DNA of 34,560 nucleotides from a virus: UHGV virus genome UHGV-0119120; one strand, 5' to 3'. The notes beneath the pieces were generated by a model, which saw only the letters and a list, made by a program, of their open reading frames with translations, was not told the origin of the DNA and searched no databases. The translations under genes were made by a program, and so were the position numbers. The stretch's first letter is position 1, and the number at the start of each line of letters is the position of its first letter. Shown here piece by piece: positions 4,426 to 31,894 of the stretch.

Positions 4426-4429
4426 TACC

Positions 4430-5494
4430 TCAGTAGTTTGTTTTTTGCATAGCACCAGCATTAACCAAATCACGACTGCCACGCGCAAAACACATCAAAT
4501 CCATGTACCACGCCTGACCTCTGGTGTCGCCAGTATAGTCGATAGCTTTGACGATATAAACGCCATCCGTCGCAATGCTGGCAGCCTGTGACGTCGTGCC
4601 GGTCAGCACACGGTTGCCGTTCTCTTCTGTTTCGGTGATACGCCCGGGCGACTGTGCTATTTCGCTATTGCCGAGCGTGGCGCGGTACACCGAAGCCTGA
4701 TCGAGCTGGATAAGACCATTAATACGGATGTTTGGGTTTATCAGGCACCGCACGTTTACTCCGCCGCCCATCGTTTGTTGCGGCATACCGATCAGGCCAG
4801 TATCGGCATTCAACACAATGGCTTCGTGAATATATTTATCCTCCGGCACCATCTGGACCTGACCATCCACCAGCTGCCATGTCGCTTTGCACTGCGCAGC
4901 AATATTATCCATCACGTTACGGGTGGATGAATAAATCGCACGGCCACGAGGAAACACGGTATCAGGAAAGTCACCGGTAATGCCCTGCGTCACGCCGAAC
5001 GCGTTGAAATCCTGCATAGTCGCCCGGTGCAGGTCCGCAACGGTATAACCAGCGGCAAGCGTGGTGATGGTAGTCGCGTAGAGGAACGCTTCGTGGTTAC
5101 TGATGGCCTGAATCAGCACCCAGGAATCGGTGATGTTGTCCTTCCCGGTGACGGTGAAGCGAATATCACCGTCAAATATCAGGCCGTAGTTCTGACCGTT
5201 CACCTGCCCTACCTGGTCTGGTGAAATCTCCCGGGCGACACCAACCTGGCTCGCATCAACATCCGGCGCAATACCGTCATACCCGGCAATGATGCGAATT
5301 TTTGCAAACTCCTGCCCCAGTATCTTGTTCGTGGTATCGGTCGAAAGGTTGTAAATTTTCACGTTTGCCACGCGCGGCCAGCGTGTATCTGCCCACTCGA
5401 TCTGGAACGTGACTTTAAAGTCAGACAGGGAAATACCCTGCCCGTTCTGGTCCAACAGCTGCAACTCAAAATGGCGCATCCAGTTAAGAGACAT
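4430..5494 (-). CDS. baseplate hub protein (Mu gp44 / P2 gpD-like)
   Basis: 354 aa ORF between the tape measure-proximal tail genes and the spike, in the position of the myophage hub. Confidence 0.5.
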   Translation of the reverse strand: MSLNWMRHFELQLLDQNGQGISLSDFKVTFQIEWADTRWPRVANVKIYNLSTDTTNKILGQEFAKIRIIAGYDGIAPDVDASQVGVAREISPDQVGQVNGQNYGLIFDGDIRFTVTGKDNITDSWVLIQAISNHEAFLYATTITTLAAGYTVADLHRATMQDFNAFGVTQGITGDFPDTVFPRGRAIYSSTRNVMDNIAAQCKATWQLVDGQVQMVPEDKYIHEAIVLNADTGLIGMPQQTMGGGVNVRCLINPNIRINGLIQLDQASVYRATLGNSEIAQSPGRITETEENGNRVLTGTTSQAASIATDGVYIVKAIDYTGDTRGQAWYMDLMCFARGSRDLVNAGAMQKTNY

Positions 5495-5496
5495 TT

Positions 5497-9043: not shown

Positions 9044-9046
9044 GCG

Positions 9047-9487: not shown

Positions 9488-9497
9488 TTATCGCTCC

Positions 9498-10658: not shown

Positions 10659-10661
10659 AGT

Positions 10662-12889: not shown

Positions 12890-12930
12890 TTTCAGTTCCC
12901 TTCTGGCCCCTTTCGGGGCCGTTCTGGTTA

Positions 12931-13872: not shown

Positions 13873-13883
13873 TCGTCTGTTCC

Positions 13884-14366: not shown

Positions 14367-14507
14367 CCGGTACAGGAATGCAAGGCTATTATTTAATCAC
14401 CTGAAATATAAGGATTTATTTGCAGTCTGATTTTGCGTGTAGTCCAAAAACTGCTCTGTGATGTATGGCGCTGAATGGGGTAAGTTACTCAATACCAGAT
14501 GTGACAT

Positions 14508-14756
14508 TTAGCGGCACATCATCCGGTAGCGCTCACCTGACGTTCTGGGATCCTCGAATTTTGATTCTAACTGGTGTACTGGCGGAGAATAGCAACCGCT
14601 GGAAACCATATTGGCGATATCTGCCGGGCTGCGGGGGTCGTCATACAGCATAATTAACGCTTCTGCGATTTCTTTGGTGCTAGCCTCCACGCTTAAAGGT
14701 TTAGTCTTAGCCATGACTTTCTCCAGTGCGATGATGCGTTTTATCCGTTCATTCAT
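14508..14756 (-). CDS. hypothetical small protein
   Basis: 82 aa ORF; its ATG overlaps the stop of the DUF5681-like gene (ATGAATGA). Confidence 0.35.
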   Translation of the reverse strand: MNERIKRIIALEKVMAKTKPLSVEASTKEIAEALIMLYDDPRSPADIANMVSSGCYSPPVHQLESKFEDPRTSGERYRMMCR

Positions 14757-15183
14757 TATGTTCTCCTTCCAGACGGGCTATGCGTTCTTCTAGCTCAGTT
14801 ATTTCAATGACTTTCATCATGCTGGCTAGCCCATCAAGTATAACCTTACCTTGATCTGCTGATAACGTCCCAGCGGCTATAGCTTTCATCACCGAACGGG
14901 CCAGCGACTGTGGGTCTGAGTCATCGAGATCAAAGGGCGTTGGAGGCAATATTGGTTTGCTTGGCGGGACAATGCGATCGAGGATGATTCTGCACGCTGC
15001 CATATCGCCTTTTCTGGCTTTTTTTAGAATGGCATCCGCTGCATCCTCCGCCCCCTCCGCCAGAAGGTTACGCAATTCAGTAGCTGTTTTTGGTCTACCT
15101 CCGGGATTCCCGCTATTCCCCTTAGCAAACTGGCCGCGCTTATTCCGTGTTACCTGTTTTTGCCTGTTCTCAGGTGCTGCCAT
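14749..15183 (-). CDS. DUF5681-like phage protein
   Basis: 144 aa; N-terminal KRGQFAKGNSGNPGGRPK motif characteristic of DUF5681; coiled-coil C-terminus. Confidence 0.5.
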   Translation of the reverse strand: MAAPENRQKQVTRNKRGQFAKGNSGNPGGRPKTATELRNLLAEGAEDAADAILKKARKGDMAACRIILDRIVPPSKPILPPTPFDLDDSDPQSLARSVMKAIAAGTLSADQGKVILDGLASMMKVIEITELEERIARLEGEHNE

Positions 15184-15228
15184 TATTAATCACCTTCAAT
15201 AAGTTACAGATCCTCTCATGGGTAGCTA

Positions 15229-15801
15229 TCACTCTCTCTCCAGATCCTCAAGAGAGCAGCAAATATGCTGTGTTGAAACAAAATAGCTCAGCATGCTGCT
15301 TACCTTGTTTGACGCGACGTAATTATAATGCTCGACCATCTTTGCTAACGCGATAATCTCCCACCAGTAATGCTTAACTAGCTTTAGCGAAATTAAATAA
15401 GCCCGGCTATAGAGCTTGTCGCAATCATCTCCTGTTGCGCCTTGGTTCCTGTATTGCTCAAGCACTTTCCGAATATCGCTGGCGTCTCCTTTCCCTCCAT
15501 TTTCCAGTAGTTTTTCAGGTGGTTCGCCTGAGTAAAGGTGTTGTGCCATTACGCCAGAAAAAGAGACGACCATCTGCGCCAGTTCATCTTTTCTGACGGG
15601 GAGATGTGAGCATACCGCCCGGCAATTATCGACCTCTTTGCCGTTAGCCAGTCGAGCAATACGAAACTCATCAGCAATAGATATCTCAATTTGCCTAGCA
15701 CCCGTAAACCACGCAGCCATCGCGTGACCGGCTTCATGGATCGCGATATTTCTGTCCCACATAGGGCTTTTGCTGAATTCAACAATTACGCCATCACTCA
15801 C
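15229..15801 (-). CDS. standalone zinc-metalloprotease domain protein, FtsH (peptidase M41)-like, no AAA+ module
   Basis: 190 aa; AIHEAGHAMAAW matches the FtsH catalytic HEAGHA zinc-binding motif; downstream KDELAQMVVSFSGVMAQHLYSG and GDASDIRKV parallel the FtsH SRQKLESQISTLYGGRLAEEIIYG and ASNDIKVAT segments. No Walker motifs. Confidence 0.5.
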   Translation of the reverse strand: MSDGVIVEFSKSPMWDRNIAIHEAGHAMAAWFTGARQIEISIADEFRIARLANGKEVDNCRAVCSHLPVRKDELAQMVVSFSGVMAQHLYSGEPPEKLLENGGKGDASDIRKVLEQYRNQGATGDDCDKLYSRAYLISLKLVKHYWWEIIALAKMVEHYNYVASNKVSSMLSYFVSTQHICCSLEDLERE

Positions 15802-15863
15802 GCTGCTTACTCTCCGTTAGATCTGTCATTTAGTTAAATTTAACTGCGTTGGGGGAGTCTCCA

Positions 15864-16040
15864 TCACACACTCCCTTCAACGGCCATTGATTCCAGCGCC
15901 TTAGCCACCAGCCCACGTGCAATTTGGTGGATAGACGGCGCTACGCCAATATCGGAGCGCTGGCGTTCGCGCTCCTGGATCTTGCAGATTGCGGCGAACT
16001 GGTCGCCAGAGAGTAATACCGGCTTAACGTTTGGCTTTTT
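15864..16040 (-). CDS. hypothetical small basic protein (possible DNA-binding)
   Basis: Likely start MKKPNVKPVLLSGDQ inside the 95 aa track ORF; overlaps the stop of the upstream 64 aa ORF. Confidence 0.3.
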   Translation of the reverse strand, partial: KKPNVKPVLLSGDQFAAICKIQERERQRSDIGVAPSIHQIARGLVAKALESMAVEGSV

Positions 16041-16218
16041 CATCCTGTTCACTCCAGAACTTTGCATTCGCTTCGTTGACTTTTTCCAGATTGCGGCATT
16101 CGTTGTTGAAGTTGTTACGCATCCGCAATTGCTCGGCCTGTTCACGGCCAAAGAGTTTACGCCCGGCGCTTTGCGGGTTTCCTGCTGCTAATTTTGGGTC
16201 ATAAATAGCCATGCTCAT
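16024..16218 (-). CDS. hypothetical small protein
   Basis: 64 aa ORF packed between the 187 aa gene and the next small ORF. Confidence 0.3.
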   Translation of the reverse strand: MSMAIYDPKLAAGNPQSAGRKLFGREQAEQLRMRNNFNNECRNLEKVNEANAKFWSEQDEKAKR

Positions 16219-16224
16219 TGCTCC

Positions 16225-16788
16225 TTACTTCGTGCGATGCCAGAAACTGGCGTTGTCGGTGTTAATGCTGCGAATGGCGTCGCCTGTGGAGAGAATCTTC
16301 GGTGAAACGTTGTTAACTCGCATGTAGTCGCCAACCTGCTCCAGAACGTCGATAGCCTGATCAAGCTGAATCTCTGATAGCGGGGTCGGATGTACCGCAC
16401 TGAATGCCTCAGCGGGTGCGTAACGCAGCACATCAAGCGCAACAAGGCGAGGATCGGTATCAGGAAGGGCATTGTCATACTTTGGCGCTACAGCGCGTAC
16501 CAGGCGCATAAATTCAGCGTCCATTGACGTTGGCGCGGTGGAGGTCGTGGAAGCGCCGCTGCCACTGCGAGTAATCATGTCACTATCGCGGGTGTACATC
16601 CGACGCAGGCGGTCGCCAGTTGCAATGCGTGTTGCACGTTCCTGCTTAAGCGTCGTTGCAAGATTCGCAATGACGAGAGCCACAGGAAGCGAGCAGGTCA
16701 GCCTTTCGAACGTATCATCGGAGTAAGTCACCTCGACGGTACCACCAGCGTTATCACTTTCCAGATTAACATTGGTTATCTGTTTCAT
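16225..16788 (-). CDS. hypothetical protein, first gene of the island accessory module
   Basis: 187 aa ORF with AAGG RBS; preceded by a palindromic operator-like region. Confidence 0.45.
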   Translation of the reverse strand: MKQITNVNLESDNAGGTVEVTYSDDTFERLTCSLPVALVIANLATTLKQERATRIATGDRLRRMYTRDSDMITRSGSGASTTSTAPTSMDAEFMRLVRAVAPKYDNALPDTDPRLVALDVLRYAPAEAFSAVHPTPLSEIQLDQAIDVLEQVGDYMRVNNVSPKILSTGDAIRSINTDNASFWHRTK

Positions 16789-16823
16789 TGTTCATAACCT
16801 TTTGCGTTGTTTAAATTCTAATC

Positions 16824-16840
16824 ATTGCATAAATTGCAAT
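16824..16840. promoter_or_regulatory. perfect 17-bp palindrome ATTGCATAAATTGCAAT (candidate operator)
   Basis: Read directly; lies about 40-60 bp upstream of the 187 aa gene start, with a related half-site ATCATTGCG at 16851-16859. Confidence 0.35.
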
Positions 16841-16938
16841 GTTAGTAAATATCATTGCGTATATTGAAATGATAAATCGACGTGATACTATGACGGTGAT
16901 CCACCATTGTGTGATTGCATAAACATGGTTAACAAAAG

Positions 16939-16973
16939 CCCTCGCCTCTCCAGCGCGGGCTTTTTCTTTTCCG
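16939..16973. terminator. hairpin with flanking T/A runs (candidate bidirectional terminator between origin and accessory operon)
   Basis: AGCCCTCGC-CTCTCCA-GCGCGGGCT stem-loop (8/9 bp) followed by TTTTTCTTTT on the plus strand and preceded by AAAA. Confidence 0.4.
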
Positions 16974-17072
16974 CTCCGCAAAGTTGCCGTTTCCGCATAC
17001 TGTCGCTTAGGCGATGCCCCTCCAAATTCGTAATTACTCTCCGAAAAAAACTCTATAGATAAACAAAAACAT

Positions 17073-17365
17073 GTTGGTTCAGTTGGTTCAGTTGGTTCAA
17101 TTTGTAAAGATTGTTGTTTTATAAGGATTATTTCTTTCGGAGTGAACCAACAAAGCCCCATTTTGAACCAACAAACGCTATTTTCGTGTTGGTTCAGTGG
17201 GAAAGATTTACAGGCCAGCCAGAAAAGGGCGTTGGTTCAATAGCGGCATTTGTTGGTTCAAAATGGGGCTTTGTTGGTTCGGTGTTGGTTCACTTACAAG
17301 CATGTAAATGCATTAAATACATACACTTATATTAATTAAATAGTTACTGAACCAACTGAACCAAC
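17073..17365. repeat. iteron array, putative origin of replication
   Basis: At least 11 copies of GTTGGTTCA / TGAACCAAC, including three tandem copies at 17073-17099. A 29-bp perfect inverted repeat GAACCAACAAAGCCCCATTTTGAACCAAC sits at 17145-17173 and 17252-17280, with an AT-rich stretch at about 17300-17345. Directly downstream of the primase-helicase stop. Confidence 0.6.
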
Positions 17366-17390
17366 AAAAAAACATCTCGTATGTGTGTTT

Positions 17391-20171
17391 TTATTCTTCA
17401 CCCTCTATCTCGTCGGGTCGTAGCTGGAGCACATAAACGTTTATCTGGCGTCCATCAATTCGCGGGGATTTACGCTGATACCCCCTTCCGCTGGCTGGCG
17501 GTTTCAGCACCCCAGCCCCGGCCAGCACACGGGCAAACTGTTTCGCGTTGAATCCCTTCGCAATCTCACCTTCGAATGCTGCCGGGAACGTGTAGAACAC
17601 TATCGGATCAGCATCATGCGCCCCTTTCTGACGGTACCCGGCCAAATCCCGAATCGGCATGTCAGCCGGGTCATAAGGGTAAGGTGCAAATCGGCTCAGT
17701 CCGTATGCATTAAGAAACGCCTCTGCCTGCTCGATGATCTGCTTATGCTCACGGTTCCCCGTGCCAAACTCTTTCACCCAGGCGTTAAAGCCATGCTGGA
17801 TGGCGTCCCGGCTTTCCTGCTCCCCCCAGCCAGTGACAGGCATCCCCAGCACCAGCGCCGCCTCCAGAATAGCGAACCGCTCGCCTACACGATGAACCTG
17901 TTCGCCATAATCAGCAGGGATAAGACTACGCCAGCGCTCCTGCGCCGCTTTGACAGCTTGTTTTGCCTCCTGCTGGTGGCCTGCAAGCCATTTAATCCAT
18001 TCACGGCCTGCGGCTCCGTGGTTCGTCTGGTAAGCCTCTTTGAGTGCGTCGGCGTGTTGCTTCCCGTTCTGGTACTCATGGTGCGTTACTGATTTCTCCA
18101 TCGGTAAATTAAGCAATCGCACCAGTTGCCCGGCCTTAACTTTCAGCCCACCAGCAGAAAGAAACGTCTCAATGTCCATTTCCCCGGTACTGATCGCCAC
18201 GGTGCGCCAGCGCTTTAACTCACGGTTGCCGCCCTCCTTGGCCCCCTGTAGCTTTCCGGCACCGTTAAACAGCGTGTAAGCAGACGTAGCAACGTCTTTG
18301 GCGCTACTGCCCTGCCCCACTTCATCCAGCGGTAACAGGCTGTCGTTATGCGCTTCCGCTTCGTTGGCGATACCCAGCGCTGTACCGTACCAGGTAAGGC
18401 GCAAGGCATCCGGTTCACCGTATAAACTGCTGGCAATGTTGGCGGTGGTTGTCTTCCCTGCGCTGGACTGCTCGAAAAGATGCACGCCGAACCCGTCAGC
18501 GCCAACAAGCCCGATCAGCGGCGCAGAAAGCGCAGCAGCAACACCCAGCATCATTGACGGGTTTCCCAGCGCAAGACGCGCCACCGAATCACGCCAGCTT
18601 TCCGGCGTTCCACTGACGGTATAGCCACCAGCCGCCGCACTCCGACCACTGAATAACAGCGGTATCTCTGGCTCACCAATAACATCACCATCCGGCATGA
18701 TGTACGCCCCGTTGTGCCAGCCTGTGGTGTGGCTGATCTGCCATTCCTTGCCGCTACCAGTTCGCTGCAGCCAGTCGGCCAGAATTGCCCGCAACGATGG
18801 TTTGGTTGTCACACTGACACCGCCGTTTTTCAGCGTGCGCCATCCCTCACGGTCGCCAATGTCCTCCCATGGAAGCGCACGGGTAACTTGCCCCCGGTTG
18901 CCGGGGACGTCCCAACGCAGGATCAGAAAGCGCTGTCTGGCGTTATCACTCCCCGCACCAGCAATCTCCAGCGGAGAGCATAGCCACGCCTCGGTATTGA
19001 TAATTTCTCCTGTGTCTTTGTCCACTTTCGGGGTGATCCAGTGAATGCCATCCGCACGGCTCTCTACTCGCGGTTTCAGATCGTCGTCGATACCAAGTTT
19101 TTTCTTGCCGCCGTCGATAGCTGTCAGTGTCGCACCCACTTTCTTACCCTCCGGTTGATACATTGAGTCGTTAAATGCTGCTGTGGCCGCTTCGAGGCCG
19201 TATTGCTGGTGGTAGTCGTTCCAGTCCGCTTTATAGTCCACTGGTGGCATGGAAACCCAGCCAGAAACGGCTTTCGCGGCTTTCTCTGCGGCCTCCTTGC
19301 CAGTGTTAACTTTCACTCCTTTAATTCCGTCACTTTCGCCCATCTGGTCGTTATCTGCGGCAATGATGATTTGTGCCTGTGGGTACTTCCGGCGCATCAC
19401 TTCGGCAACGGGTAGCAGGTTGCCCGCGTCAATTGCTGCCACTGCCAGCGCGTCCGGGCGCATCAGGTGAACTGAAAGGGCCGTCGCCAGCCCCTCGGCA
19501 ATTAAAACGCTCTGCGGCGATTCTGGCGCGTTTACGGCATGATATGCCCCGCGCTTTGCTGAACCTGTCAGGAGTCGCTTCTCTCCCTGCGGTGTAATGG
19601 TTTGCGCTGCTGCCACTGCGCCGGATTCGTCCACCAGCTCCAGCAATAACGAACCATCAGGCATAACCGGATAGTTAAACCCGGTCAGCCCTTTTGATTG
19701 CAGGTAATCAGATTCGCCCTGTGTGGCACTCTGGCGCATTCCGGCATACAGACGGGCAAACGTAGCCCTTCGCTGCTCTGCGTCCCCTGCTGCCTGTTTC
19801 TGGCGCTCCTGCTCACGCTGCTGGCGGTCAGCTTCCAGTTGCTCCCTTCTATGGCTCGCTGCCACCGGGTCGGATTGCGCTGCCAGGTAATCAATACCCA
19901 GCACGTCAGCGGCAAGCTGTGCCGCCTCCGTAGTGTCGCAGTTGTTAACCCGCTTGATTAAATCCAGCCCGTCACCAGCGCCACACTGGTTGCAGATAAA
20001 GCTACCGCGCCCGTTGTCGTCGAATCTGAAACGGTCTTTTCCACCACATGCAGGGCATGGAGAATGGCGGCGCGATGAATCAGGCACGTCGATAGACAAC
20101 CCAGCCAGCACATAAGGCCAGCGCCCTGCTGCGGCGCTGGTCACTTCGCGGATAAGGTCGATATTACGCAT
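17391..20171 (-). CDS. primase-helicase (zinc ribbon + Toprim primase + P-loop NTPase)
   Basis: Likely start MRNIDLI with AGGAGG RBS. N-terminal CPACGGKDRFRF...CNQCG zinc ribbon; Toprim-like acidic motifs (LIAEGLATA, IIIAADNDQMGE); Walker A-like SSAGKTT. Confidence 0.8.
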   Translation of the reverse strand: MRNIDLIREVTSAAAGRWPYVLAGLSIDVPDSSRRHSPCPACGGKDRFRFDDNGRGSFICNQCGAGDGLDLIKRVNNCDTTEAAQLAADVLGIDYLAAQSDPVAASHRREQLEADRQQREQERQKQAAGDAEQRRATFARLYAGMRQSATQGESDYLQSKGLTGFNYPVMPDGSLLLELVDESGAVAAAQTITPQGEKRLLTGSAKRGAYHAVNAPESPQSVLIAEGLATALSVHLMRPDALAVAAIDAGNLLPVAEVMRRKYPQAQIIIAADNDQMGESDGIKGVKVNTGKEAAEKAAKAVSGWVSMPPVDYKADWNDYHQQYGLEAATAAFNDSMYQPEGKKVGATLTAIDGGKKKLGIDDDLKPRVESRADGIHWITPKVDKDTGEIINTEAWLCSPLEIAGAGSDNARQRFLILRWDVPGNRGQVTRALPWEDIGDREGWRTLKNGGVSVTTKPSLRAILADWLQRTGSGKEWQISHTTGWHNGAYIMPDGDVIGEPEIPLLFSGRSAAAGGYTVSGTPESWRDSVARLALGNPSMMLGVAAALSAPLIGLVGADGFGVHLFEQSSAGKTTTANIASSLYGEPDALRLTWYGTALGIANEAEAHNDSLLPLDEVGQGSSAKDVATSAYTLFNGAGKLQGAKEGGNRELKRWRTVAISTGEMDIETFLSAGGLKVKAGQLVRLLNLPMEKSVTHHEYQNGKQHADALKEAYQTNHGAAGREWIKWLAGHQQEAKQAVKAAQERWRSLIPADYGEQVHRVGERFAILEAALVLGMPVTGWGEQESRDAIQHGFNAWVKEFGTGNREHKQIIEQAEAFLNAYGLSRFAPYPYDPADMPIRDLAGYRQKGAHDADPIVFYTFPAAFEGEIAKGFNAKQFARVLAGAGVLKPPASGRGYQRKSPRIDGRQINVYVLQLRPDEIEGEE

Positions 20172-20505
20172 GGTTGCCTCCTGCCACGGTCGCGCCCATA
20201 TCATTAATCATGCTTTGCCATATCTCGCGCCCGACGTCAGTCAATCCGTCCTTAGTGACGCAACGATCAAGAAGCTCGATCCCCACGGTTTCCCACTGCG
20301 GGTAGAACACTTTCATGGCTGCCAGTGTGTAGCTATCGATCAGGCTGCGAACGCCTTTTACTCCATTGACGATTTCCACACGGACGGCGAGGCCGTCCGC
20401 ATCAACCATGAAATAGTCCCCGCCGCTGGTGGCGGTAATGTGGTTATACAGTGCCGACGCATACTTATTCGCCAGCGCATTCAGTCGGAAATTTTTAGTA
20501 ATCAT
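20164..20505 (-). CDS. hypothetical protein (replication operon)
   Basis: 113 aa ORF; stop overlaps the primase start (ATGCGTAA). Confidence 0.4.
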   Translation of the reverse strand: MITKNFRLNALANKYASALYNHITATSGGDYFMVDADGLAVRVEIVNGVKGVRSLIDSYTLAAMKVFYPQWETVGIELLDRCVTKDGLTDVGREIWQSMINDMGATVAGGNHA

Positions 20506-20514
20506 GTCGCCCCC

Positions 20515-21141
20515 TCAGTGCGCCAGCGGCATTTCAGGCCAGCCGTTTTCATCCAGTTCAGCTATAAAGCTGTTGTGAAGTTCAGCAAGCGTTTCACGCC
20601 CGAACGGGGTCAGCTCGCCGCGCTCCGTGTCGATCATGGCCTGATAAAAAACAATGGCGTTCGCTGTTCCCTGCTCAACGCCGTAGCGCTCAATCATTGC
20701 GCCCTCGATGTTGTTCGCCATCGCCAGCCGTTCAGCAAACGGGTAAACCACCATGCCCGCATTACCATTGGAGTAAATCGCCACCTGCGATGATGTGCCG
20801 TCAGCCTCAGTAACCGTGGTGGTGCCGTTCTCGCGCTTCATCTCAGAAACGAACGTCGCAGCAATCAGCCAGCGCCACATAGTGACGTTATGCTGCGCGG
20901 TGAAGTCGAACCAGCCACGCTCCCCGCCGTCAGCCACTGCCAAATGCAGGGCAAATCCTTCATCGGTCTTATTGTCATACTCACCCGCATCCAGACGTAC
21001 TACGACTTTTTCGTAGTTGATAAGAGCAACATGCTCATACATTCCGGCATCATTGCGGGTCATGATATTGACGCCGTGCGGTGTGGCTTCGGCGTGGAAC
21101 AGGTCGGGATTTCCCGGTTTAATGGTCAGTATATTGCTCAT
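20515..21141 (-). CDS. hypothetical protein (replication operon)
   Basis: 208 aa ORF, tightly packed in the operon. Confidence 0.45.
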   Translation of the reverse strand: MSNILTIKPGNPDLFHAEATPHGVNIMTRNDAGMYEHVALINYEKVVVRLDAGEYDNKTDEGFALHLAVADGGERGWFDFTAQHNVTMWRWLIAATFVSEMKRENGTTTVTEADGTSSQVAIYSNGNAGMVVYPFAERLAMANNIEGAMIERYGVEQGTANAIVFYQAMIDTERGELTPFGRETLAELHNSFIAELDENGWPEMPLAH

Positions 21142-21359
21142 GCTTTGCCCTCCCGATATTCACGCATTACATGGTCAGCTAGCTTGCTTTCAGCCTCGCT
21201 CATTGCTTCGGGCACACCGTGTAACAGCGTCAGAATGGAACCTATAAGGCGTGGTAAATCGGGATCTGTTTTATTGGTGGTGCTCTCCAGCCACATGGAC
21301 AAAACAGCCTGTGCCTGTTCAATCTGGCAGGCAGCATCAATCAGTTGTAACTGGCTCAT
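21138..21359 (-). CDS. hypothetical small protein
   Basis: 73 aa ORF with 4-nt overlaps to neighbours. Confidence 0.35.
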   Translation of the reverse strand: MSQLQLIDAACQIEQAQAVLSMWLESTTNKTDPDLPRLIGSILTLLHGVPEAMSEAESKLADHVMREYREGKA

Positions 21360-21619
21360 GCGCTGCCCTCCGCATCAATTCTGGCTATATCGACAATCGT
21401 CAGGACTTTACTAAGCCAGCAATACGCGATGGCTGCTTGCTCAACTTCGAGGAGTGGTAATAAATCGGTCATAACGTGAGCCAGCCCATTGCGGGCGCGG
21501 GTCATGCGTTCTGCGGTACGCTCTGCCAGCGTGAAAGAGTCAGGGTACGGCTGTTCGCGGGATAGCATCGCCTCGGCCTCAAGATCTGCAGGATGGCGAT
21601 AGATGGTATGAATGTTCAC
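21356..21619 (-). CDS. hypothetical small protein
   Basis: 87 aa ORF with GTG start, overlapping neighbours. Confidence 0.35.
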   Translation of the reverse strand: MNIHTIYRHPADLEAEAMLSREQPYPDSFTLAERTAERMTRARNGLAHVMTDLLPLLEVEQAAIAYCWLSKVLTIVDIARIDAEGSA

Positions 21620-21795
21620 GCTGCCACCTCCTGAATACGAGTAATACGAACGTGCTTATAACCGCCTTTATTCGCCAGTAGTTGCGCAGTCGATTTAGCT
21701 GTTTCTGGACTGGTGCTAGTCATGGTGTAGTGAATGCCGACGGTGTTACCGCGCTTGTTAACAGCGTATCCGTCGATCTGGAAGGTTTTACGCAT
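21616..21795 (-). CDS. hypothetical small protein (59 aa, below ORF-track cutoff)
   Basis: ATG overlaps the stop of the recombinase gene (AATGCGTAA); translation MRKTFQIDGYAVNKRGNTVGIHYTMTSTSPETAKSTAQLLANKGGYKHVRITRIQEVAA. Confidence 0.3.
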   Translation of the reverse strand: MRKTFQIDGYAVNKRGNTVGIHYTMTSTSPETAKSTAQLLANKGGYKHVRITRIQEVAA

Positions 21796-22666
21796 TTCCG
21801 ACCTCCATTGCTAAACGGGACTGGATAGCTGCCGCTTTACTGCCTAATTGCAGGTAAGTACGAGTTATCGCAGGGTTGCTATGACCCAGCATTTCAGAGG
21901 CCACTAATAGGCCCTGTTCGCCACCTGCGGACATGAGGTTAAAGGCGGCTATTTTGCGGCTTGAGTAGGCGCTCAGGCGCAATTTAGCGTTAATGAAACG
22001 GGTAAACCACGCCATGACGCCATGAAGTTTGCGCCAGATGGTTTGGCGAGTAACGCTACCTTCCAGACGTTGACAACGGTTACTTTCGATTTGAGAGCGG
22101 GAAAATACCAGGTCGTCCTCCACCAGATTCCGATCCTGACGGTCACGCAGCCGCTTGATAATGCCGGGGGGTAACTGTTTGGTGTCGTGCTTGACGTCAG
22201 CCTTAGCCACCAGCCCGAACACAATCGCCTGTTCTTCGTCGTTCATATCGGCGGCCAGTTCATCACAGCCGATACTATCCCACTTCATGTAGGCGATATG
22301 GTCAGCGGCGAGCCGCGCGGCGTCCTTGCGCTGCTGGCGCACAATTTCAATACCTTTGCGGGTTGCCCGCGCTTCTGCGGCTTTGGTCTGTTTGGAAACG
22401 ATAATTGTCGCCTGTCCAGTTTCCCAATTGATGCAGGAATAGCGCAGGTTGCAAACGTCGCTGGTACGCCAGCCGGTTACGGTCGCAATATCCCACCAGA
22501 GCAACACCCAATCGGGCTGTGTCTGCTGGATGCGCTCGCGTAGCTTGCGCTGCTCGTCACGGTCATAGACAGGGGTCATGGTGCGACTGCCCTTTGTGCT
22601 CGCCGCTTTAACGACATTGCCGCGCAGCTCGCGGGCTTTGGCTGTCAGAGTCTGGAGGTTAAACAT
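21788..22666 (-). CDS. tyrosine recombinase / integrase-like protein (second recombinase)
   Basis: Likely start MFNLQTL at 22666; C-terminal LGHSNPAITRTYLQ resembles the His...Tyr catalytic end of tyrosine recombinases; candidate box I Arg in TGWRTSDV. Confidence 0.55.
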   Translation of the reverse strand: MFNLQTLTAKARELRGNVVKAASTKGSRTMTPVYDRDEQRKLRERIQQTQPDWVLLWWDIATVTGWRTSDVCNLRYSCINWETGQATIIVSKQTKAAEARATRKGIEIVRQQRKDAARLAADHIAYMKWDSIGCDELAADMNDEEQAIVFGLVAKADVKHDTKQLPPGIIKRLRDRQDRNLVEDDLVFSRSQIESNRCQRLEGSVTRQTIWRKLHGVMAWFTRFINAKLRLSAYSSRKIAAFNLMSAGGEQGLLVASEMLGHSNPAITRTYLQLGSKAAAIQSRLAMEVGNA

Positions 22667-22847
22667 GACGCACCTCCGGCACTGGCAGACGTGCGGCCAG
22701 AGACAAAATAAAGTGCGGCGCAAGGATGCGGCGGGCTTCGCGTTCGGTCGCAGCCTCAACGGACAGACGGCAAGGTTTGGCTTTTTTATCGTGGCGATTC
22801 AGCGCGAGAAAGCGCCAGGTGAATTTTGAGTGTGCGGATCTAGCCAT
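22659..22847 (-). CDS. small protein upstream of the recombinase (possibly Icd-like)
   Basis: 62 aa ORF; stop overlaps the recombinase ATG (CATGTTTAA); ends ...FILSLAARLPVPE. Family assignment is from memory only. Confidence 0.3.
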   Translation of the reverse strand: MARSAHSKFTWRFLALNRHDKKAKPCRLSVEAATEREARRILAPHFILSLAARLPVPEVRHV

Positions 22848-23167
22848 TTTTAGCGGCTCCTAGAACATATTGAAGGAGTCTCGCCAGATGCTGCTAAACA
22901 TGGGTGGCGAGACGTGACGGGGTTAGCAGACTGGCGTTCTAGGAAACCAGCAGGCGTTAAGCCTCCCCACCACGCCCCGCCATAAATCGGGGGTATGGTT
23001 GGTTTTCGGGCGTAAAAATACCGCTATACGGAAATCAGCGGCTACCCGCTAGAACGTTCAGGCTGCTAAACCCGGCACCCGTTTTGTGAGGTGCGAAATA
23101 ATCATAACCACACTACCCCGTTAAGCGCAAGGGAAATATCCCCTGCGCCCACAATGCAAACTTGTTA

Positions 23168-24238
23168 TTAGTACCCGCGAGAAGCGTAAACTCGTGCCAT
23201 GCCAGCCCAATGAGAGAAAAGAATTTCCCACTTAATTGGGTTGTAGGTAATACTTCCATCGACTGCGGCAGCATTCCATGCCCGATCAGAAATAGAGCTA
23301 TCTTTAGCAGTTTTCCCCCATTCAACAATATCCCTTGCTAAAGCCTGTACACATGCTCGACTGACTACCTTTTCGTCAACGTACGCCCCAACATCAGAGC
23401 ATGACTCCATACTCATGTTCAGGCTATTTTTAAGGGACTCCAGCCCGGCCACTGACATAAAGCGACGACCATTAGCGTATGCAACACCGTCATTCCTGAT
23501 AGTGAACTTAACAGTGTGGAATGCGTCAACAATCATCCGCTGCTCTGGCGTCGGGTTCTGCCATAGCACAAGGTTAATCTCTCTCTCAGAAGCTATTGAT
23601 TCTGCTTTCTCACGCTTAACTCGTGCATCCCGTTCTGCCTGGTATTGTTTTTGATTTTCATCATGAGCCTTTTGGTAACTAGAGGCTAATGCGTCTCTGT
23701 TTTTGGCAAATGCTGCAATGCTATTTTTGAAATCGCTTCTGCTAACCTTGTTTAACCCCATACTCCAGCGGTCATTTTCGTAATCATCATAAATGGCATC
23801 AACTTTTGCCGGATTACTCAGCACAGTCGCCAGATTAACCGGAATTTTAGCCATCTCGTCACTGATTCTCGCTACATGTTCGAAAGTCGATATAGAGCCA
23901 ACTTCATGACTCCCATACTCATGATAAGCGGCATAAAAAATTGGAATAGATTGAGGTTTTTCGTTCACTGACTTAATGATGCTTTTTTCATCACATGACT
24001 GTTCACCCCATTTGAAAACACTTTTCCCACCATTTTTGTATGTGTTGCAATCATCAATACCCAAACGAACCAGCGCATCCCATCCGGGCCGTTTCTTGTA
24101 ATCCTCGCTCTTGACAACATGCATTGTGGTTAGGGCTTTCGCAGGATCTAACTTGCCAGCGGTACAAGACACGATAGGAAAGGCCAGAGAAGCGCAGGCT
24201 GCTATCCTGAAAAGGCTCGTCAATCTTTCTTTTTTCAT
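23168..24238 (-). CDS. lipoprotein, unknown function (island cargo)
   Basis: 356 aa; N-terminal MKKERLTSLFRIAACASLAFPIVSC has a lipobox (IVSC); central Lys/Glu-rich coiled-coil segment; gene is visibly more AT-rich than its flanks. Confidence 0.55.
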   Translation of the reverse strand: MKKERLTSLFRIAACASLAFPIVSCTAGKLDPAKALTTMHVVKSEDYKKRPGWDALVRLGIDDCNTYKNGGKSVFKWGEQSCDEKSIIKSVNEKPQSIPIFYAAYHEYGSHEVGSISTFEHVARISDEMAKIPVNLATVLSNPAKVDAIYDDYENDRWSMGLNKVSRSDFKNSIAAFAKNRDALASSYQKAHDENQKQYQAERDARVKREKAESIASEREINLVLWQNPTPEQRMIVDAFHTVKFTIRNDGVAYANGRRFMSVAGLESLKNSLNMSMESCSDVGAYVDEKVVSRACVQALARDIVEWGKTAKDSSISDRAWNAAAVDGSITYNPIKWEILFSHWAGMARVYASRGY

Positions 24239-24402
24239 CGTCCTAATGCTCTTTCAAACCAAGAATGTAGGACATAGTAAATTGTGGTTAATGGCAAGTC
24301 GATATAAAGGCCGGGTTATTGGCTTCGGTGCCAATATCATTTCTCCGAAATTTCATAACGCCTGTAATCGCTCGTTTCCCCATCTTGGGGACATTTCAAA
24401 AC

Positions 24403-24523
24403 TGCGAATCAAAGTGCGAATGGAACTGCGAATTCGCAAAGAGAGAGCGCCGCTCAAAGCAGGCCGGATAAGGCTTCGCGGACATATTGCGAATGCGAAT
24501 CCACCAGAAACGAAACGCGAATC
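24403..24523. repeat. cluster of TGCGAAT heptamer repeats (candidate operator array)
   Basis: TGCGAAT at 24403, 24415 and 24427 (12-bp phasing), the third within the palindrome TGCGAATTCGCA; further copies at 24488, 24495 (GCGAAT) and 24517 (CGCGAAT). Lies 165-285 bp upstream of the lipoprotein gene. Confidence 0.4.
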
Positions 24524-25079
24524 ACCCATAAACAAAACCGATACGCAGGGAGCGTACTGCCCGTATTCAATCGGCCGAAAAGTCAGCCGATTAAAATCAT
24601 GCCCGGCTATCCCCTGAAATTTCAGGAGATCGAGAGCCACCAGCAGAGAACCGTTCATGCCATCGGTAACTTGCAGCCCGAAGCTCAAATCTGAGCGTTG
24701 ACCGCCAGCCAGAAGAAACCATTTTAAATCCCGCGCCTTCTCTTTGGATGAACAGGGTTACTCCCCGTAATGCTGTGAACTGCCACGATGATTCGGGGTT
24801 GTGTTGCGCTGGCCTTTGAGTCCCGCACAAACACTGACCCACAAAATTTTTGTAGGTGACTGGCCCTCTTGATGAGGTGCTGTTTTGCGTAACCCTTAAT
24901 GAGTTGTGCAAAGGCTCAACCCTTTAAAAGGGTTGCCTAACCACCGGCGATAGTAATAACCGCCAACCTATGAACACTATGAACACCTTTGAGCATTTTT
25001 CTATAAACATTCCACTACTGCCCTATTTGATGCCTTTCTCTGGCTGGCCTGTGTAAGTTACCGTTGCTGGGAACTGACA

Positions 25080-25115
25080 ATAAAAAAGGCTTGCCCCTCT
25101 CAGGTAACAAGCCTT
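25080..25115 (-). terminator. rho-independent terminator downstream of the AlpA-like gene
   Basis: Minus-strand hairpin AAGGCTTG-(14 nt)-CAAGCCTT followed by TTTTTT, about 20 nt after the stop at 25133. Confidence 0.5.
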
Positions 25116-25132
25116 GTCTATCGCTCTGGATC

Positions 25133-25345
25133 TCACTCACTACAGATTCCGCGCTTTTGGCTCTGTCTTCCGATCCACGCCTCCACCTCATCGCGATACC
25201 AGCAATTGCGGCCGCCAACTTTGAAGGGCATCGGAAAGCCGTTCCCCTCATCCTTCAGAAATTCATAGAACGCAGAATCAGAACGGTAGCGTAGACGGGC
25301 TTTAACTTCGACTTTGAGCAAAATATCACTGTTAGATATGGACAT
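25133..25345 (-). CDS. alpA: AlpA-family transcriptional regulator / excisionase-like protein
   Basis: 70 aa; ...GFPMPFKVGGRNCWYRDEVEAWI matches the AlpA helix-turn-helix pattern; GAGG RBS and two TATAAT-like elements upstream. Confidence 0.6.
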   Translation of the reverse strand: MSISNSDILLKVEVKARLRYRSDSAFYEFLKDEGNGFPMPFKVGGRNCWYRDEVEAWIGRQSQKRGICSE

Positions 25346-25400
25346 AAAAACCTCATTATATATTCGATATAATTATATATGATTTGAATAAAAAAAACGC
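25346..25400 (-). promoter_or_regulatory. AT-rich candidate promoter for the AlpA-like gene
   Basis: Minus strand shows TATAAT-like hexamers within 40 nt upstream of the start codon, between the integrase terminator and the gene. Confidence 0.3.
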
Positions 25401-25420
25401 ATTCCGGTTAGCTTTGGGCA

Positions 25421-25446
25421 TAAAAAAAGCTGGCTTAAAGCCAGCT
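25421..25446 (-). terminator. rho-independent terminator downstream of the P4-type integrase
   Basis: Perfect inverted repeat AGCTGGCTT-A-AAGCCAGCT followed on the minus strand by a run of 7 T. Confidence 0.55.
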
Positions 25447-25487
25447 ATACCCGTTTGAAATCATGATTATCCAGAAATGGATGTGCC

Positions 25488-26717
25488 TTACACAACCAGC
25501 CTCAAGCCCTTATCGCCGCTGGTCTCCAGTATTTCGCCACACTCTGCGGCCTCGATAAAGTCCCCCCACCATTGCATTAAAACCCGGCGTTTTTCCAGAT
25601 AGTCGCTACGGTTATAAACATTTCGAATCGCATCGGCGCTTTTGTGAGCGAGTGCAGCCTCAATCACATCAGGGTTGAACCCCTCGTCATTTAAAACTGT
25701 AGATGCCAACGCCCTGAACCCATGAGGAACAATCAGCCCTTTAAACGACGTTTTGTGTATCCCGGCCTGAGTCGCACAGCGTGAGATCGGCTTATTTTCT
25801 TTTCGCCATGAGGGGAAAACATAATCGCAGCGCTTCCACTTTTCGGCCTCTTTAAGCACGTTTATAGCCTGGCTCGATAATGGGACTACGTGGGGGCGCT
25901 TTCCTTTCATCCGGCTTGCAGGGATTTGCCAGATTGAGTTATCAAAATCAATCTCATTCCAGAGAGCGCCGCCAGCCTCCGAAGGCCGGACCATCGTAAT
26001 GATCTGAAATAATAATGCCAGCTTTGATGGCTCCCATAAGCTCAACTCGTTCCATGCGCTTAAAAATTCGGGCAACCGCTCTTTCTGTAAAGTCGCTCTT
26101 GGCTCGTTTTTTTCAGCCGGGAATGCTTTACCAATTTTCGATAGCGGGTTGTGCTCAATAACCCCAATGTTTACCGCATAATCCATTATGGCGTTGATGG
26201 TAATAACCATTTTCGTAAGCGTTGATGGCCTTTCCCTGAAAGGTTTAAAAGCCTGAATAGTATCGGCTGCGTTTATTTTATGTACCGTGGTATGCCTAAA
26301 AATCGTGGAAAGATGCTTCAACGTCACATTGTGCGATTCAAGCGTGTTGCTTCTCGCACCTTCTTTAATCTTGATTTTTAGCCATTCATCGGCAACGGCC
26401 TGAAATGACTGCGCGTACATTTTACGCTGTTCATTCCTGGCATCTTTTTTGACTTCGTTCGGATCTATCCCTCGCGCTACCATACGGCGCAGTTTCGAAC
26501 GTTCCTCCCTCGCTTCGGACAAAGTAAACTCCGGGTATCGTCCAATAGTATAGGTTTGTCTCTTCTTCGTTACCGGGTGTACATACCGAAAACGCCATGA
26601 CTTACCGCCCCGGCTTGTGATGTAAAGCAACAAACCGAAACCATCGTGCAAACTGAAATCCTTGCCCTGTGCCTTCGCGCTTTTCACTTCGACGCTAGTT
26701 AGTGGCCTAACAATCAT
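25488..26717 (-). CDS. int: P4-type tyrosine integrase
   Basis: 409 aa; N-terminal ...LHDGFGLLLYITSRGGKSWRFRY is the typical arm-binding (DUF4102-like) signature of P4-family integrases. Confidence 0.75.
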   Translation of the reverse strand: MIVRPLTSVEVKSAKAQGKDFSLHDGFGLLLYITSRGGKSWRFRYVHPVTKKRQTYTIGRYPEFTLSEAREERSKLRRMVARGIDPNEVKKDARNEQRKMYAQSFQAVADEWLKIKIKEGARSNTLESHNVTLKHLSTIFRHTTVHKINAADTIQAFKPFRERPSTLTKMVITINAIMDYAVNIGVIEHNPLSKIGKAFPAEKNEPRATLQKERLPEFLSAWNELSLWEPSKLALLFQIITMVRPSEAGGALWNEIDFDNSIWQIPASRMKGKRPHVVPLSSQAINVLKEAEKWKRCDYVFPSWRKENKPISRCATQAGIHKTSFKGLIVPHGFRALASTVLNDEGFNPDVIEAALAHKSADAIRNVYNRSDYLEKRRVLMQWWGDFIEAAECGEILETSGDKGLRLVV

Positions 26718-26931
26718 TCAACACCTCTCTGGCTACCATGTAATGCAAACGGCGCATGATTCTCTTTCTAGTCCCTCATGTACCGAATCAAAGCGAAATC
26801 CGGCGAATAAATCCGCACATGTTCGGAGTGTCATTTTTATGGTTCAGGCCAGTAACGCCGTATGATTCCGAACGATAACGCACTGATTAATAGATATTAG
26901 TTGCATAAGGTACAGATATGCAGTCATTGGA

Positions 26932-28164: not shown

Positions 28165-28178
28165 GGTTTACCTGCGAT

Positions 28179-31892: not shown

Positions 31893-31894
31893 AC

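What the first reader, a model, noticed from the sequence alone, without database searches (positions are those of the whole stretch)
23168..24238. AT-rich lipoprotein cargo gene in the satellite hotspot position
A 356 aa predicted lipoprotein with a coiled-coil segment, visibly more AT-rich than its surroundings, sits between the integrase/AlpA end and the replication operon. That is the location where P4-like satellites are known to carry variable antiviral cargo (established for satellites in general; not verified for this locus). Candidate superinfection-exclusion or envelope-acting defence protein; I recognise no family.
Basis: inference. Interest (0 to 1): 0.6.

Follow-up and report, generated by a model that had tools for sequence, protein, structure and literature searches.

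The report
Orphan exported lipoprotein in embedded satellite
A real, well-conserved but uncharacterised lipoprotein gene sits in a phage satellite that is itself inserted inside its helper prophage; its relatives sit in the tail-tip gene cluster of the same kind of helper phage, which makes it a good but untested candidate for a protein that blocks entry of rival phage particles.

Summary
Window 23168-24238 (-) encodes a 356-aa protein with a family-wide conserved lipobox Cys25. Its GC is 44.7%, against 51-58% around it. It lies between int/AlpA and the replication operon.

The "P4 hotspot cargo" interpretation is only partly right.
- The element has no psu/sid/delta. It is a roughly 12.5-kb PICI-type satellite embedded in a SEN34-like (Brunovirus) prophage, between the DUF2213 and cement genes. 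This arrangement is the published "helper-embedded PICI".
- The lipoprotein is nearly fixed in this lineage, present in about 18 of 20 related islands. The variable content is next to it.

The protein matches no Pfam, NCBIfam, PHROG or PADLOC family. Confident AlphaFold models find no relative among solved structures. The family is tiny and, where members carry organism names, confined to Enterobacterales.

Relatives occur in other satellites and between the baseplate-hub and spike genes of SEN34-type prophages. There its C-domain replaces a conserved exported protein, and its N-domain can be fused to that protein.

Best inference, at about 0.4: an outer-membrane-anchored periplasmic protein that excludes particles carrying helper-type tails. 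No phenotype was tested.

The parts
23168..24238 (-). CDS of the 356-aa lipoprotein (stop codon included)
   Evidence: ORF list. 41 homologue clusters. Alignment A1. dN/dS 0.05-0.17.
24164..24238 (-). Signal peptide and lipobox (residues 1-25, I-V-S-C25)
   Evidence: Cys25 invariant. Lipobox present in 47 of 58 full-length family members, and +2 is never Asp. Residues 1-31 have pLDDT below 50, as expected for a cleaved leader.
23699..24145 (-). N-domain (residues 32-180): all-alpha, invariant Cys64/Cys82, motifs YKKRPGW and YAAYHEYG. Acts as a reusable lipoprotein anchor module.
   Evidence: AlphaFold2 model. Invariant columns. The same domain is fused to a phrog_3443-type domain in Serratia P0048/P0051 and in Enterobacter L005.
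23591..23698 (-).
   Evidence: Helix H181-216. 42% charged with a weak heptad. Fastest-evolving part by dN. 6-residue indel in the Photorhabdus, Yersinia and Serratia members.
23171..23590 (-). C-domain (residues 217-356): small beta sheet plus four helices, invariant Cys280/Cys296, Y286, W307, W321, W344. Occurs alone as an exported protein elsewhere.
24274..24302 (-). Weak promoter-like match TCGACT-17-TACTAT, about 35 nt upstream of the ATG
   Evidence: 8 of 12 consensus match. The proximal roughly 65 bp are conserved in the Salmonella island, whose lipoprotein is only 76% identical. Consensus match only, not evidence of function.
24400..24525 (.). Cluster of 7-8 (G)ATTCGC(A) repeats in the conserved 330-bp block upstream of the gene
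   Evidence: The block is kept in E. coli EC2001, where the lipoprotein ORF is missing. It is absent from the Salmonella island that has the gene. It is therefore separable from the gene, and its role is unknown.
25080..25121 (-). Terminator-like hairpin plus T-run after the AlpA-like gene, insulating the lipoprotein gene from int-alpA
   Evidence: Inverted repeat I6. Sequence read.
25133..25345 (-). AlpA-like gene (70 aa)
   Evidence: Pfam Phage_AlpA E=0.0065, below the curated cut-off. The related EC2001 homologue, in a DNA match of 95.5% identity, is annotated as AlpA family.
25488..26717 (-). Satellite integrase (409 aa)
   Evidence: Arm-DNA-bind_3, Phage_int_M and Phage_integrase domains.
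22900..22987 (-). C4-type antisense immunity RNA directly downstream of the lipoprotein gene
   Evidence: Rfam RF01695, 75 bits against a gathering score of 45, E=4e-13.
22858..23070 (-). P1 immI-like unit: C4 target repeats upstream (23049-23070) and downstream (22858-22897, overlapping the icd ribosome-binding site)
   Evidence: Complementarity search and read-out. The 82% DNA match to about 90-kb E. coli plasmids covers 22890-23075. The comparison with P1 immI is from my own knowledge.
22659..22847 (-). Icd-like gene, first gene after the C4 RNA
   Evidence: NCBIfam NF033153, E=1e-22.
14369..26922 (-). The whole embedded satellite. The imperfect att core GGTACAG-N2-ATGCA lies at 14369-14382 and 26909-26922.
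   Evidence: Junctions compared with an empty site. The DUF2213 and cement genes are contiguous in 335 of 339 E. coli genomes carrying this head module.
4084..4488 (-). Exported phrog_3443-type protein of the helper prophage, encoded right after the baseplate hub gene. It is the positional alternative to the lipoprotein's C-domain.
   Evidence: PHROG hit E=3e-44. Signal peptide read. A homologue sits at the same place in all six SEN34-like phage or captured modules checked. It is replaced by C-domain proteins in the Photorhabdus and Providencia prophages and in yong1.

Best explanation
Shown by sequence: the gene encodes a precursor that should be exported by Sec and lipidated at Cys25. With Thr at +2, the canonical Lol rule would send it to the inner leaflet of the outer membrane.

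Predicted architecture: the mature protein has a disulfide-braced all-helical N-domain next to the lipid anchor, a 36-residue charged helix acting as a spacer, and a disulfide-braced C-domain of unknown fold held out into the periplasm.

Inferred function: it is an entry-exclusion (superinfection-exclusion) factor directed at particles that carry SEN34/Brunovirus-type tails. Those particles would be the helper phage's relatives and rival satellites packaged in the same tails. It would act either on the outer-membrane receptor from the periplasmic side or on the tail-tip machinery (tape measure with SLT domain, hub, spike) as it crosses the periplasm.

Inferred expression: the gene lies just upstream of the C4-RNA control point of the satellite's early operon. 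It could therefore be expressed in the lysogen while the genes behind C4 stay shut off.
For: Export and lipidation signals are conserved family-wide, and two invariant Cys pairs fit a periplasmic protein. The gene is under purifying selection.

Genomic association with the tail tip:
- Homologues lie between or next to the baseplate hub (E217_gp41-like) and spike genes of SEN34-type prophages in Photorhabdus, Serratia, Enterobacter and Providencia, and in Hafnia phage yong1.
- Every SEN34-like phage checked has an exported phrog_3443-type protein at that spot. C-domain proteins replace it, and the N-domain anchor can be fused to it.
- An E. coli satellite that captured the helper hub and spike genes kept that exported protein with them.
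- In a Serratia satellite the homologue is followed by tail-fibre and tail-fibre-assembly genes.

The satellite lives inside this helper type.

Precedent, from established knowledge: exclusion genes are often placed beside the entry apparatus they match. Examples are T5 llp next to pb5, cor near tail-fibre genes, the HK97 gp15 moron in the tail module, and TP-J34 Ltp, which targets the tape measure (PMC3952083 and PMC3594210 listed).

The low GC matches that of the helper's tail-slot genes, 42-43%.
Against: - No phenotype was tested.
- No convincing promoter or terminator was found, only 8 of 12 consensus matches, so expression in the lysogen is unproven.
- A satellite gains from helper infection, so excluding helper-type phages is not obviously in its interest.
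- One distant member (P0054) sits in an ordinary chromosomal context between argS and flhE.
- Conservation of an exported protein in every SEN34-like tail module could equally mean a role in the phage's own cycle.
Confidence: 0.4

Rival explanations
1. General anti-phage defence cargo. Here the lipoprotein would be an envelope sensor or effector that protects against unrelated phages, for example by abortive infection or membrane damage, rather than a block matched to the helper's own tail.
For: It lies in the dynamic zone of a satellite next to a variable slot holding a pair tagged HVO_A0114/TumE in related islands. Satellites are known to carry defence hotspots (PMC9122126). Its composition is AT-rich and foreign.
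Against: No PADLOC hit. It is a single gene with no partner. It is nearly fixed in the lineage instead of alternating with other systems. Its recurring neighbours are tail-tip genes, not defence genes. Residues invariant across distant members are Cys, Tyr and Trp, which suggests binding rather than catalysis.
Confidence: 0.15
2. Lysogenic-conversion envelope factor that benefits the host and is not directed at phages. Examples would be serum or bile resistance, adhesion or envelope stability, in the manner of lambda Bor or plasmid TraT.
For: It is a prophage- or satellite-borne outer-membrane lipoprotein with moron-like low GC. The family occurs in animal, plant and insect-associated Enterobacterales.
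Against: The tight positional link to the hub-spike cassette, and the modular swapping with another exported protein of that cassette, are not expected for a host-fitness factor. There is no similarity to Bor/Iss/TraT families in Pfam or NCBIfam.
Confidence: 0.15
3. A factor used in the phage's or satellite's own productive cycle. It would be exported before lysis to act on peptidoglycan or the outer membrane (timing or completeness of lysis), or to stop released particles from being wasted on cell debris.
For: An exported protein is conserved at the same tail-module position in all SEN34-like phages examined, as expected for a phage function rather than an optional moron. All satellite genes are co-oriented with the helper late operon, so late read-through could express the gene (concept in PMC10111431).
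Against: The helper has a complete separate lysis cassette of holin, endolysin and Rz/Rz1-like genes. The satellite copy lies beside the immunity RNA, not in the late zone, and is shielded by terminator-like hairpins after int and alpA. Protecting progeny from debris is mechanistically the same as receptor masking, so it overlaps the best explanation.
Confidence: 0.12
4. A hitch-hiking or decaying gene with no current function in this island.
For: It has been lost without other obvious change in E. coli EC2001 and in L043, and it is truncated in L023.
Against: dN/dS is 0.05-0.17 across genera. 41 columns are invariant. It is retained in about 18 of 20 related islands.
Confidence: 0.05

Closest known systems
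Phage T5 Llp and phi80/N15 Cor (outer-membrane lipoproteins that inactivate the FhuA receptor)
   Same: They are phage-encoded lipoproteins of Gram-negative hosts, encoded beside the genes of the entry apparatus they match. They protect the lysogen or the progeny against particles using the same route. This comparison rests on my own knowledge of these systems.
   Different: Llp and Cor are small single-domain proteins of about 60-80 aa. This protein is 356 aa with two domains and a spacer helix. No sequence family or fold match was found. The receptor is unknown, and this copy is carried by a satellite.
Streptococcus thermophilus phage TP-J34 Ltp (superinfection-exclusion lipoprotein acting on the tape measure protein)
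   Same: It is a membrane-anchored, helical, modular lipoprotein that blocks DNA entry after adsorption (PMC3952083). That is the kind of mechanism proposed here.
HK97 gp15 and other tail-module morons
   Same: These are accessory genes inserted within a tail gene cluster that exclude phages with the matching tail machinery (PMC3594210). Prophage members of this family sit in just such a slot.
   Different: gp15 is an inner-membrane protein, not a lipoprotein, and there is no homology. The window copy has moved out of the tail module into a satellite.
Helper-embedded PICIs (Tommasini, Mageeney and Williams 2023)
   Same: The carrying element matches this description. It has co-oriented int, alpA and primase, an immunity RNA in the dynamic zone, an origin after the primase, and insertion within the helper's late genes.
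   Different: The published survey mapped sites in cognates of lambda late genes. Here the helper is a SEN34-like myovirus and the site is the short gap between the DUF2213 and cement genes. In place of a Bro-N protein, the dynamic zone holds this lipoprotein. The paper's main text does not contain the word lipoprotein.
P4-like satellite defence hotspot (Rousset et al. 2022)
   Same: It is an integrase-proximal accessory region of a satellite in Enterobacterales.
   Different: That hotspot is defined as the psu-int interval and shows a different system in each element. This island has no psu hit, and the gene is nearly constant in its lineage.

Membership tests
Bacterial lipoproteins (Lgt/LspA substrates) | N-terminal signal peptide with a basic n-region and a hydrophobic h-region, ending in a lipobox [LVI][ASTVI][GAS]C with Cys at about position 15-35 | tested here: met
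   MKKER...IVSC25. Cys25 is invariant. A core lipobox is present in 47 of 58 full-length members, and 38 of 58 also fit the strict PROSITE-type pattern. The window protein misses the strict form only through Pro at -4.
Bacterial lipoproteins (Lgt/LspA substrates) | Actual acylation and LspA cleavage, and outer-membrane sorting | not testable with these tools
   Only the +2 rule can be read from sequence. Thr is at +2, and Asp is never at +2 in the family.
P4-like satellite hotspot cargo | The element carries psu (with sid and delta), and the locus lies between psu and int | tested here: not met
   No Psu, Sid or Delta family hit was found among the island ORFs scanned in Pfam, PHROGs and NCBIfam. 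The hotspot definition comes from PMC9122126.
P4-like satellite hotspot cargo | Content of the locus differs between otherwise homologous elements | tested here: not met
   The lipoprotein is present in 10 of 10 and 9 of 10 sampled places, and in 3 of 4 complete E. coli genomes with this integrase. Only loss, a 76% allele in Salmonella, and an adjacent variable pair are seen.
P4-like satellite hotspot cargo | Confers resistance to phages | not testable with these tools
   Needs plaque assays. PADLOC gave no hit.
Gram-negative PICI / helper-embedded PICI | Co-oriented int, alpA and primase, with an origin downstream of the primase | tested here: met
   int and primase domains. The AlpA hit is weak in Pfam, but a close homologue is annotated as AlpA family. 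There are 14 or more TGTTGGTTCA iterons at about 17070-17370, just after the primase gene.
Gram-negative PICI / helper-embedded PICI | Inserted within the helper prophage late region, co-oriented with it, with an att duplication and an identifiable empty site | tested here: met
   Junction cores GGTACAG-N2-ATGCA at 14369 and 26909. There is an uninterrupted site in 335 of 339 E. coli genomes with this head module. The same insertion is seen in Salmonella and in many assemblies.
Gram-negative PICI / helper-embedded PICI | Induction, excision and helper-dependent transfer | not testable with these tools
   Experimental.
Known exclusion lipoproteins (Llp, Cor, Ltp) and T4 Spackle | Sequence or fold homology to one of these proteins | tested here: not met
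Moron (independent accessory transcription unit in a phage genome) | Base composition unlike the neighbouring genes | tested here: met
   GC 44.7% and GC3 41.7%, against 54-58% GC and about 60-64% GC3 in the neighbouring replication and head genes.
Moron (independent accessory transcription unit in a phage genome) | Own promoter and terminator | tested here: inconclusive
   Only 8 of 12 promoter-like matches upstream and downstream. No canonical terminator lies between the stop codon and the C4 RNA.

The most novel reading that the evidence does not exclude
The lipoprotein may belong to a modular, previously undescribed set of exported proteins tied to the baseplate hub-spike cassette of SEN34/Brunovirus-type temperate myoviruses. 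In this set a reusable lipoprotein anchor domain carries one of at least two unrelated, interchangeable periplasmic domains. Each domain would be matched to a puncturing device and would block entry of particles carrying it. Helper-embedded satellites would have taken a copy and placed it upstream of their immunity RNA, so that the lysogen excludes both rival helpers and rival satellites that ride in the same tails.
Probability: 0.25. Interest if true: 0.7.

Novelty: new variant of a known kind. Interest (0 to 1): 0.5.

Why it matters
If the exclusion role is real, this would be a new protein family, and apparently two new folds, for blocking phage entry in Enterobacterales.

It would also show a satellite borrowing its helper's own exclusion module. 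That bears on how satellites, helpers and rival satellites compete for the same tail and receptor.

In practice it could explain unexpected resistance of some E. coli, Salmonella, Klebsiella and Serratia lysogens to temperate myoviruses.

The domain swapping with the conserved exported phrog_3443-type protein gives function-unknown genes in many prophage tail modules a testable hypothesis.

If the role is not exclusion, the finding reduces to an uncharacterised accessory lipoprotein in an already described kind of embedded satellite.

Tried and rejected
- **Family scans of the target:** Pfam, PHROGs, PADLOC and NCBIfam gave nothing at E up to 0.01. Distant members also gave nothing, apart from Sel1/TPR repeats in one fusion protein.
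- **PDB sequence profile search:** only coiled-coil noise.
- **Foldseek against viral models:** one hit, H9C1A6, at E=3e-5 and 16% identity. No name was available and I could not identify it. tblastn with three family members against 50,697 phage records found only Hafnia phage yong1.
- **AlphaFold database library:** not available on the machine.
- **Plasmids:** no homologue.
- **Homology between the C-domain and the phrog_3443-type protein:** rejected, hhalign probability 0.2%.
- **Upstream ORFs 24353-24688 and 24597-24911 as real genes:** rejected. They have no family hits, their length is not conserved, and their frames are rich in Arg, Ser and Leu.
- **The ATTCGC repeats as part of the lipoprotein unit:** rejected, because the two occur independently of each other.
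- **The 10-nt match to C4 RNA inside the ORF (23738-23747):** treated as chance.
- **Housekeeping envelope protein:** rejected. The family has only 47 representatives among 1.84 billion proteins. Nearly all members with a resolved context lie in prophages or satellites, the one exception being P0054.
- **ORF 16811-17161:** probably spurious, since about a third of it overlaps the origin iterons.

Full report
**1. The observation**

Window 23168-24238 on the minus strand is an ATG-started ORF of 356 aa. An identical protein is annotated only as 'hypothetical protein' in E. coli ABWA45, whose chromosome matches this part of the window at 99.9%.

The N-terminus, MKKERLTSLFRIAACASLAFPIVSC-TAG, has a basic start, a hydrophobic core and a lipobox. 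In an alignment of 36 homologues the Cys is invariant and the residue before it is always Gly, Ala or Ser. Across 58 full-length family members, 47 have a core lipobox, and the residue after the Cys is never Asp. By the standard sorting rule this predicts an outer-membrane lipoprotein.

Two further Cys pairs, 64/82 and 280/296, are invariant. That fits disulfides in an exported protein.

The gene has 44.7% GC and 41.7% GC3. The island as a whole has 50.9% GC, and the neighbouring replication and head genes have 54-58%.

It is 42% charged with little heptad hydrophobicity. I therefore call it a spacer helix.

Where synonymous sites are not saturated, dN/dS is 0.05-0.17. The gene is functional.

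**2. What carries it**

All genes in the window run on the minus strand.

- Positions 1-14366 and 26932-32446 are the tail, head and packaging genes of a temperate myovirus of the Salmonella phage SEN34 (Brunovirus) type.
- Between its DUF2213 gene and its cement gene lies a roughly 12.5-kb insert, 14369-26922.
- In 335 of 339 E. coli genomes with this head module the two genes are contiguous.
- Comparison with such an empty site gives the junction core GGTACAG-N2-ATGCA at both ends.

In gene order, the insert carries:

- an integrase and an AlpA-like gene;
- the lipoprotein;
- a C4-type antisense RNA (Rfam, 75 bits) with its target repeats on both sides, the downstream one over the ribosome-binding site of an Icd-like gene;
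- a second tyrosine-recombinase-like gene and small ORFs;
- a Zn-ribbon/Toprim/DUF927 primase;
- an iteron-rich origin;
- a short late zone.

No psu, sid or delta hit was found among the ORFs scanned. This is the four-zone plan described for Gram-negative PICIs. The nesting inside the helper's late genes is the published 'helper-embedded PICI' (PMC10111431). The P4 hotspot, by contrast, is defined as the psu-int interval (PMC9122126).

**3. Is it variable cargo?**

I looked up the exact Icd-like and AlpA-like proteins in public assemblies.

- All 10 distinct places with the identical Icd have the 351/356-aa gene at a fixed distance from icd. One copy is truncated.
- 9 of 10 places with the identical AlpA-like protein have it, and L043 lacks it.
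- Among 5,426 complete E. coli genomes the integrase occurs in four. Three carry the gene and EC2001 does not.
- A Salmonella island with a 99.8% identical integrase carries a 76% identical allele together with a different Icd variant.

What does vary is the spacer between alpA and a conserved upstream block. It is empty in two length forms, or it holds a divergently oriented pair tagged HVO_A0114/TumE.

So the gene sits in the dynamic zone, but in this lineage it behaves as a nearly fixed component.

**4. The protein family**

A word-indexed search found 41 clusters, all unnamed. The members that carry an organism name are from E. coli, Salmonella, Klebsiella, Serratia, Pectobacterium, Dickeya, Rahnella, Yersinia and Photorhabdus. 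A genome scan added Phytobacter, Kosakonia and Enterobacter.

An exhaustive profile search of 1.84 billion representatives found only 47 proteins. The distant ones that carry names come from Serratia and Providencia.

The full-length AlphaFold2 model has mean pLDDT 82.9. It shows a disordered leader, an all-helical N-domain, the long helix, and a C-domain with a small sheet and four helices. A domain-only model of the C-domain reached pLDDT 92.9 and pTM 0.87.

Residues invariant across the most distant C-domains are two Cys, one Tyr and three Trp. That pattern looks like a binding surface or a structural core rather than a catalytic site.

**5. Where relatives live**

There are three settings.

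(a) The same embedded satellite, as above.

(b) Satellites integrated next to yicC in E. coli, Yersinia and Serratia, and a related satellite in Dickeya whose insertion site was not resolved. There the gene lies in the late zone. In three of them it directly follows a small cytoplasmic protein with an FtsH-like HEAGHA motif, which the window island also encodes at 15229-15801. In Serratia it lies directly before tail-fibre and tail-fibre-assembly genes.

(c) Prophages of the helper type, inside the tail-tip cassette, immediately after or before the baseplate hub gene and upstream of the spike gene. This is seen in Photorhabdus (two loci), Serratia, Enterobacter and Providencia. Hafnia phage yong1 has the C-domain alone there.

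**6. The modular pattern**

I built HMMs for the N-domain, the C-domain and the exported protein encoded at window 4084-4488 (phrog_3443 type), and scanned all the fetched loci.

- Each of the six SEN34-like phage or captured modules checked has a phrog_3443-type exported protein right after the hub gene. These are the window prophage, Omnitron, SEN34, 683R1, GZ7 and ST405-OXA48phi1.2.
- The same holds in the baseplate block captured by the EC2001 satellite.
- The Photorhabdus and Providencia prophages and yong1 lack it, and have a C-domain protein at that spot.
- In the Serratia and Enterobacter prophages, and in P0051, the N-domain lipoprotein anchor is fused to the phrog_3443-type domain.
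- The two C-terminal modules are not detectably homologous.

The family is therefore an anchor module plus interchangeable exported modules, tied to the hub-spike cassette. The published observation that these satellites capture helper late genes, and the EC2001 example, suggest a simple route from the helper tail module into satellites.

**7. Mechanism**

Shown by sequence:
- an exported, lipidated, disulfide-bonded two-domain protein under purifying selection;
- a recurrent association with the entry apparatus genes of one phage type and with that type's satellites.

Inferred:
- it blocks entry of particles carrying that apparatus, either through the receptor from the periplasmic side (as I recall for T5 Llp) or by binding the tape measure, hub or spike in the periplasm (as for TP-J34 Ltp or HK97 gp15; PMC3952083 and PMC3594210);
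- it is expressed in the lysogen.

In the satellite the gene lies just upstream of the P1 immI-like unit. That unit runs from the first C4 target at 23070 through the C4 RNA to the icd ribosome-binding site. The gene is shielded from int-alpA by terminator-like hairpins, and no canonical terminator separates it from C4. A transcript that makes C4 in the lysogen could therefore also express it. However, only weak promoter-like matches were found.

I put this explanation at about 0.4. The rivals are generic defence, a host-fitness conversion factor, a role in the productive cycle, and decay. They are listed with their tests.

**8. Novelty and score**

The carrying element is of a published kind, possibly at an unlisted site. 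The lipoprotein family and both of its domains are uncharacterised, and I found no mention of the family in the papers searched. If it is an exclusion factor, it is a new family in a known functional class, with an unusual modular link between helper and satellite. Nothing here is experimentally tested, so interest is moderate.

Noticed in passing
window 14369-26922: The roughly 12.5-kb satellite is inserted inside a SEN34-like prophage, in the short gap between the DUF2213 gene and the cement gene, and is co-oriented with the late genes. The imperfect core GGTACAG-N2-ATGCA is present at both ends. The site is empty in 335 of 339 E. coli genomes with this head module. This matches the published helper-embedded PICI idea, but with a myovirus helper and a site I did not see in the parts of that paper I read.
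   Followed up: yes
window 22858-23070: There is a C4-type antisense RNA (22900-22987) with complementary target repeats upstream (23049-23070) and downstream (22858-22897). The downstream one covers the ribosome-binding site of the Icd-like gene. The segment 22890-23075 is 82% identical to about 90-kb E. coli plasmids.
   Followed up: partly
window 17070-17370: At least 14 copies of TGTTGGTTCA / TGAACCAACA occur in both orientations in a 41%-GC stretch just after the primase gene. This is probably the satellite origin. ORF 16811-17161 partly overlaps it (about 90 of its 351 bases) and is probably not a gene.
   Followed up: partly
window 24400-24525: Seven or eight (G)ATTCGC(A) repeats, three of them at 12-bp spacing, lie in a conserved 330-bp block upstream of the lipoprotein gene. 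The block persists in E. coli EC2001, where the gene is missing, and is absent from the Salmonella island that has the gene. Its function is unknown; it could be a protein-binding array.
   Followed up: partly
window 15229-15801: A cytoplasmic protein carries an FtsH-like HEAGHAMAAW zinc-protease motif and no ATPase domain. It is conserved in all the related satellites examined. In the E. coli (L009), Yersinia (L010) and Dickeya (L007) satellites it is encoded directly before the lipoprotein homologue.
   Followed up: partly
window 21788-22666: A second tyrosine-recombinase-like gene has only a partial Phage_integrase match. It overlaps the end of icd and is conserved at the head of the replication operon in this satellite lineage. 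Its role is unknown.
   Followed up: no
window 3363-4488: The low-GC (42-43%) stretch between the helper's baseplate hub and spike genes holds an exported phrog_3443-type protein (4084-4488). That protein is conserved at this spot in all SEN34-like phages checked. Two further small ORFs follow: 3646-4002, and 3363-3665, which has a weak hit to a PHROG family labelled 'hemolysin'.
   Followed up: partly
L006 9185-9830; also L014, L018-L021, L023: In related islands a divergently oriented gene pair tagged HVO_A0114 and TumE fills the spacer between alpA and the lipoprotein's upstream block. There is no PADLOC hit. This is the truly variable spot of the region.
   Followed up: partly
L031 (E. coli EC2001, NZ_CP133811.1) 2286-6077: A sister satellite lacks the lipoprotein, but its late zone has captured helper baseplate genes: Dit-like, plug, hub, an exported phrog_3443-type protein and the spike. 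It also has a DUF2280 gene.
   Followed up: partly
window 14749-15183: The last satellite gene has a DUF5681 domain, whereas sister islands have a DUF2280 gene at that position. The helper's own small terminase (31895-32446) is of the Terminase_2 type. Whether these satellite genes redirect packaging was not examined.
   Followed up: no
window 23738-23747: A 10-nt stretch inside the lipoprotein ORF is perfectly complementary to C4 RNA nucleotides 58-67. I treated it as probably chance.
   Followed up: no
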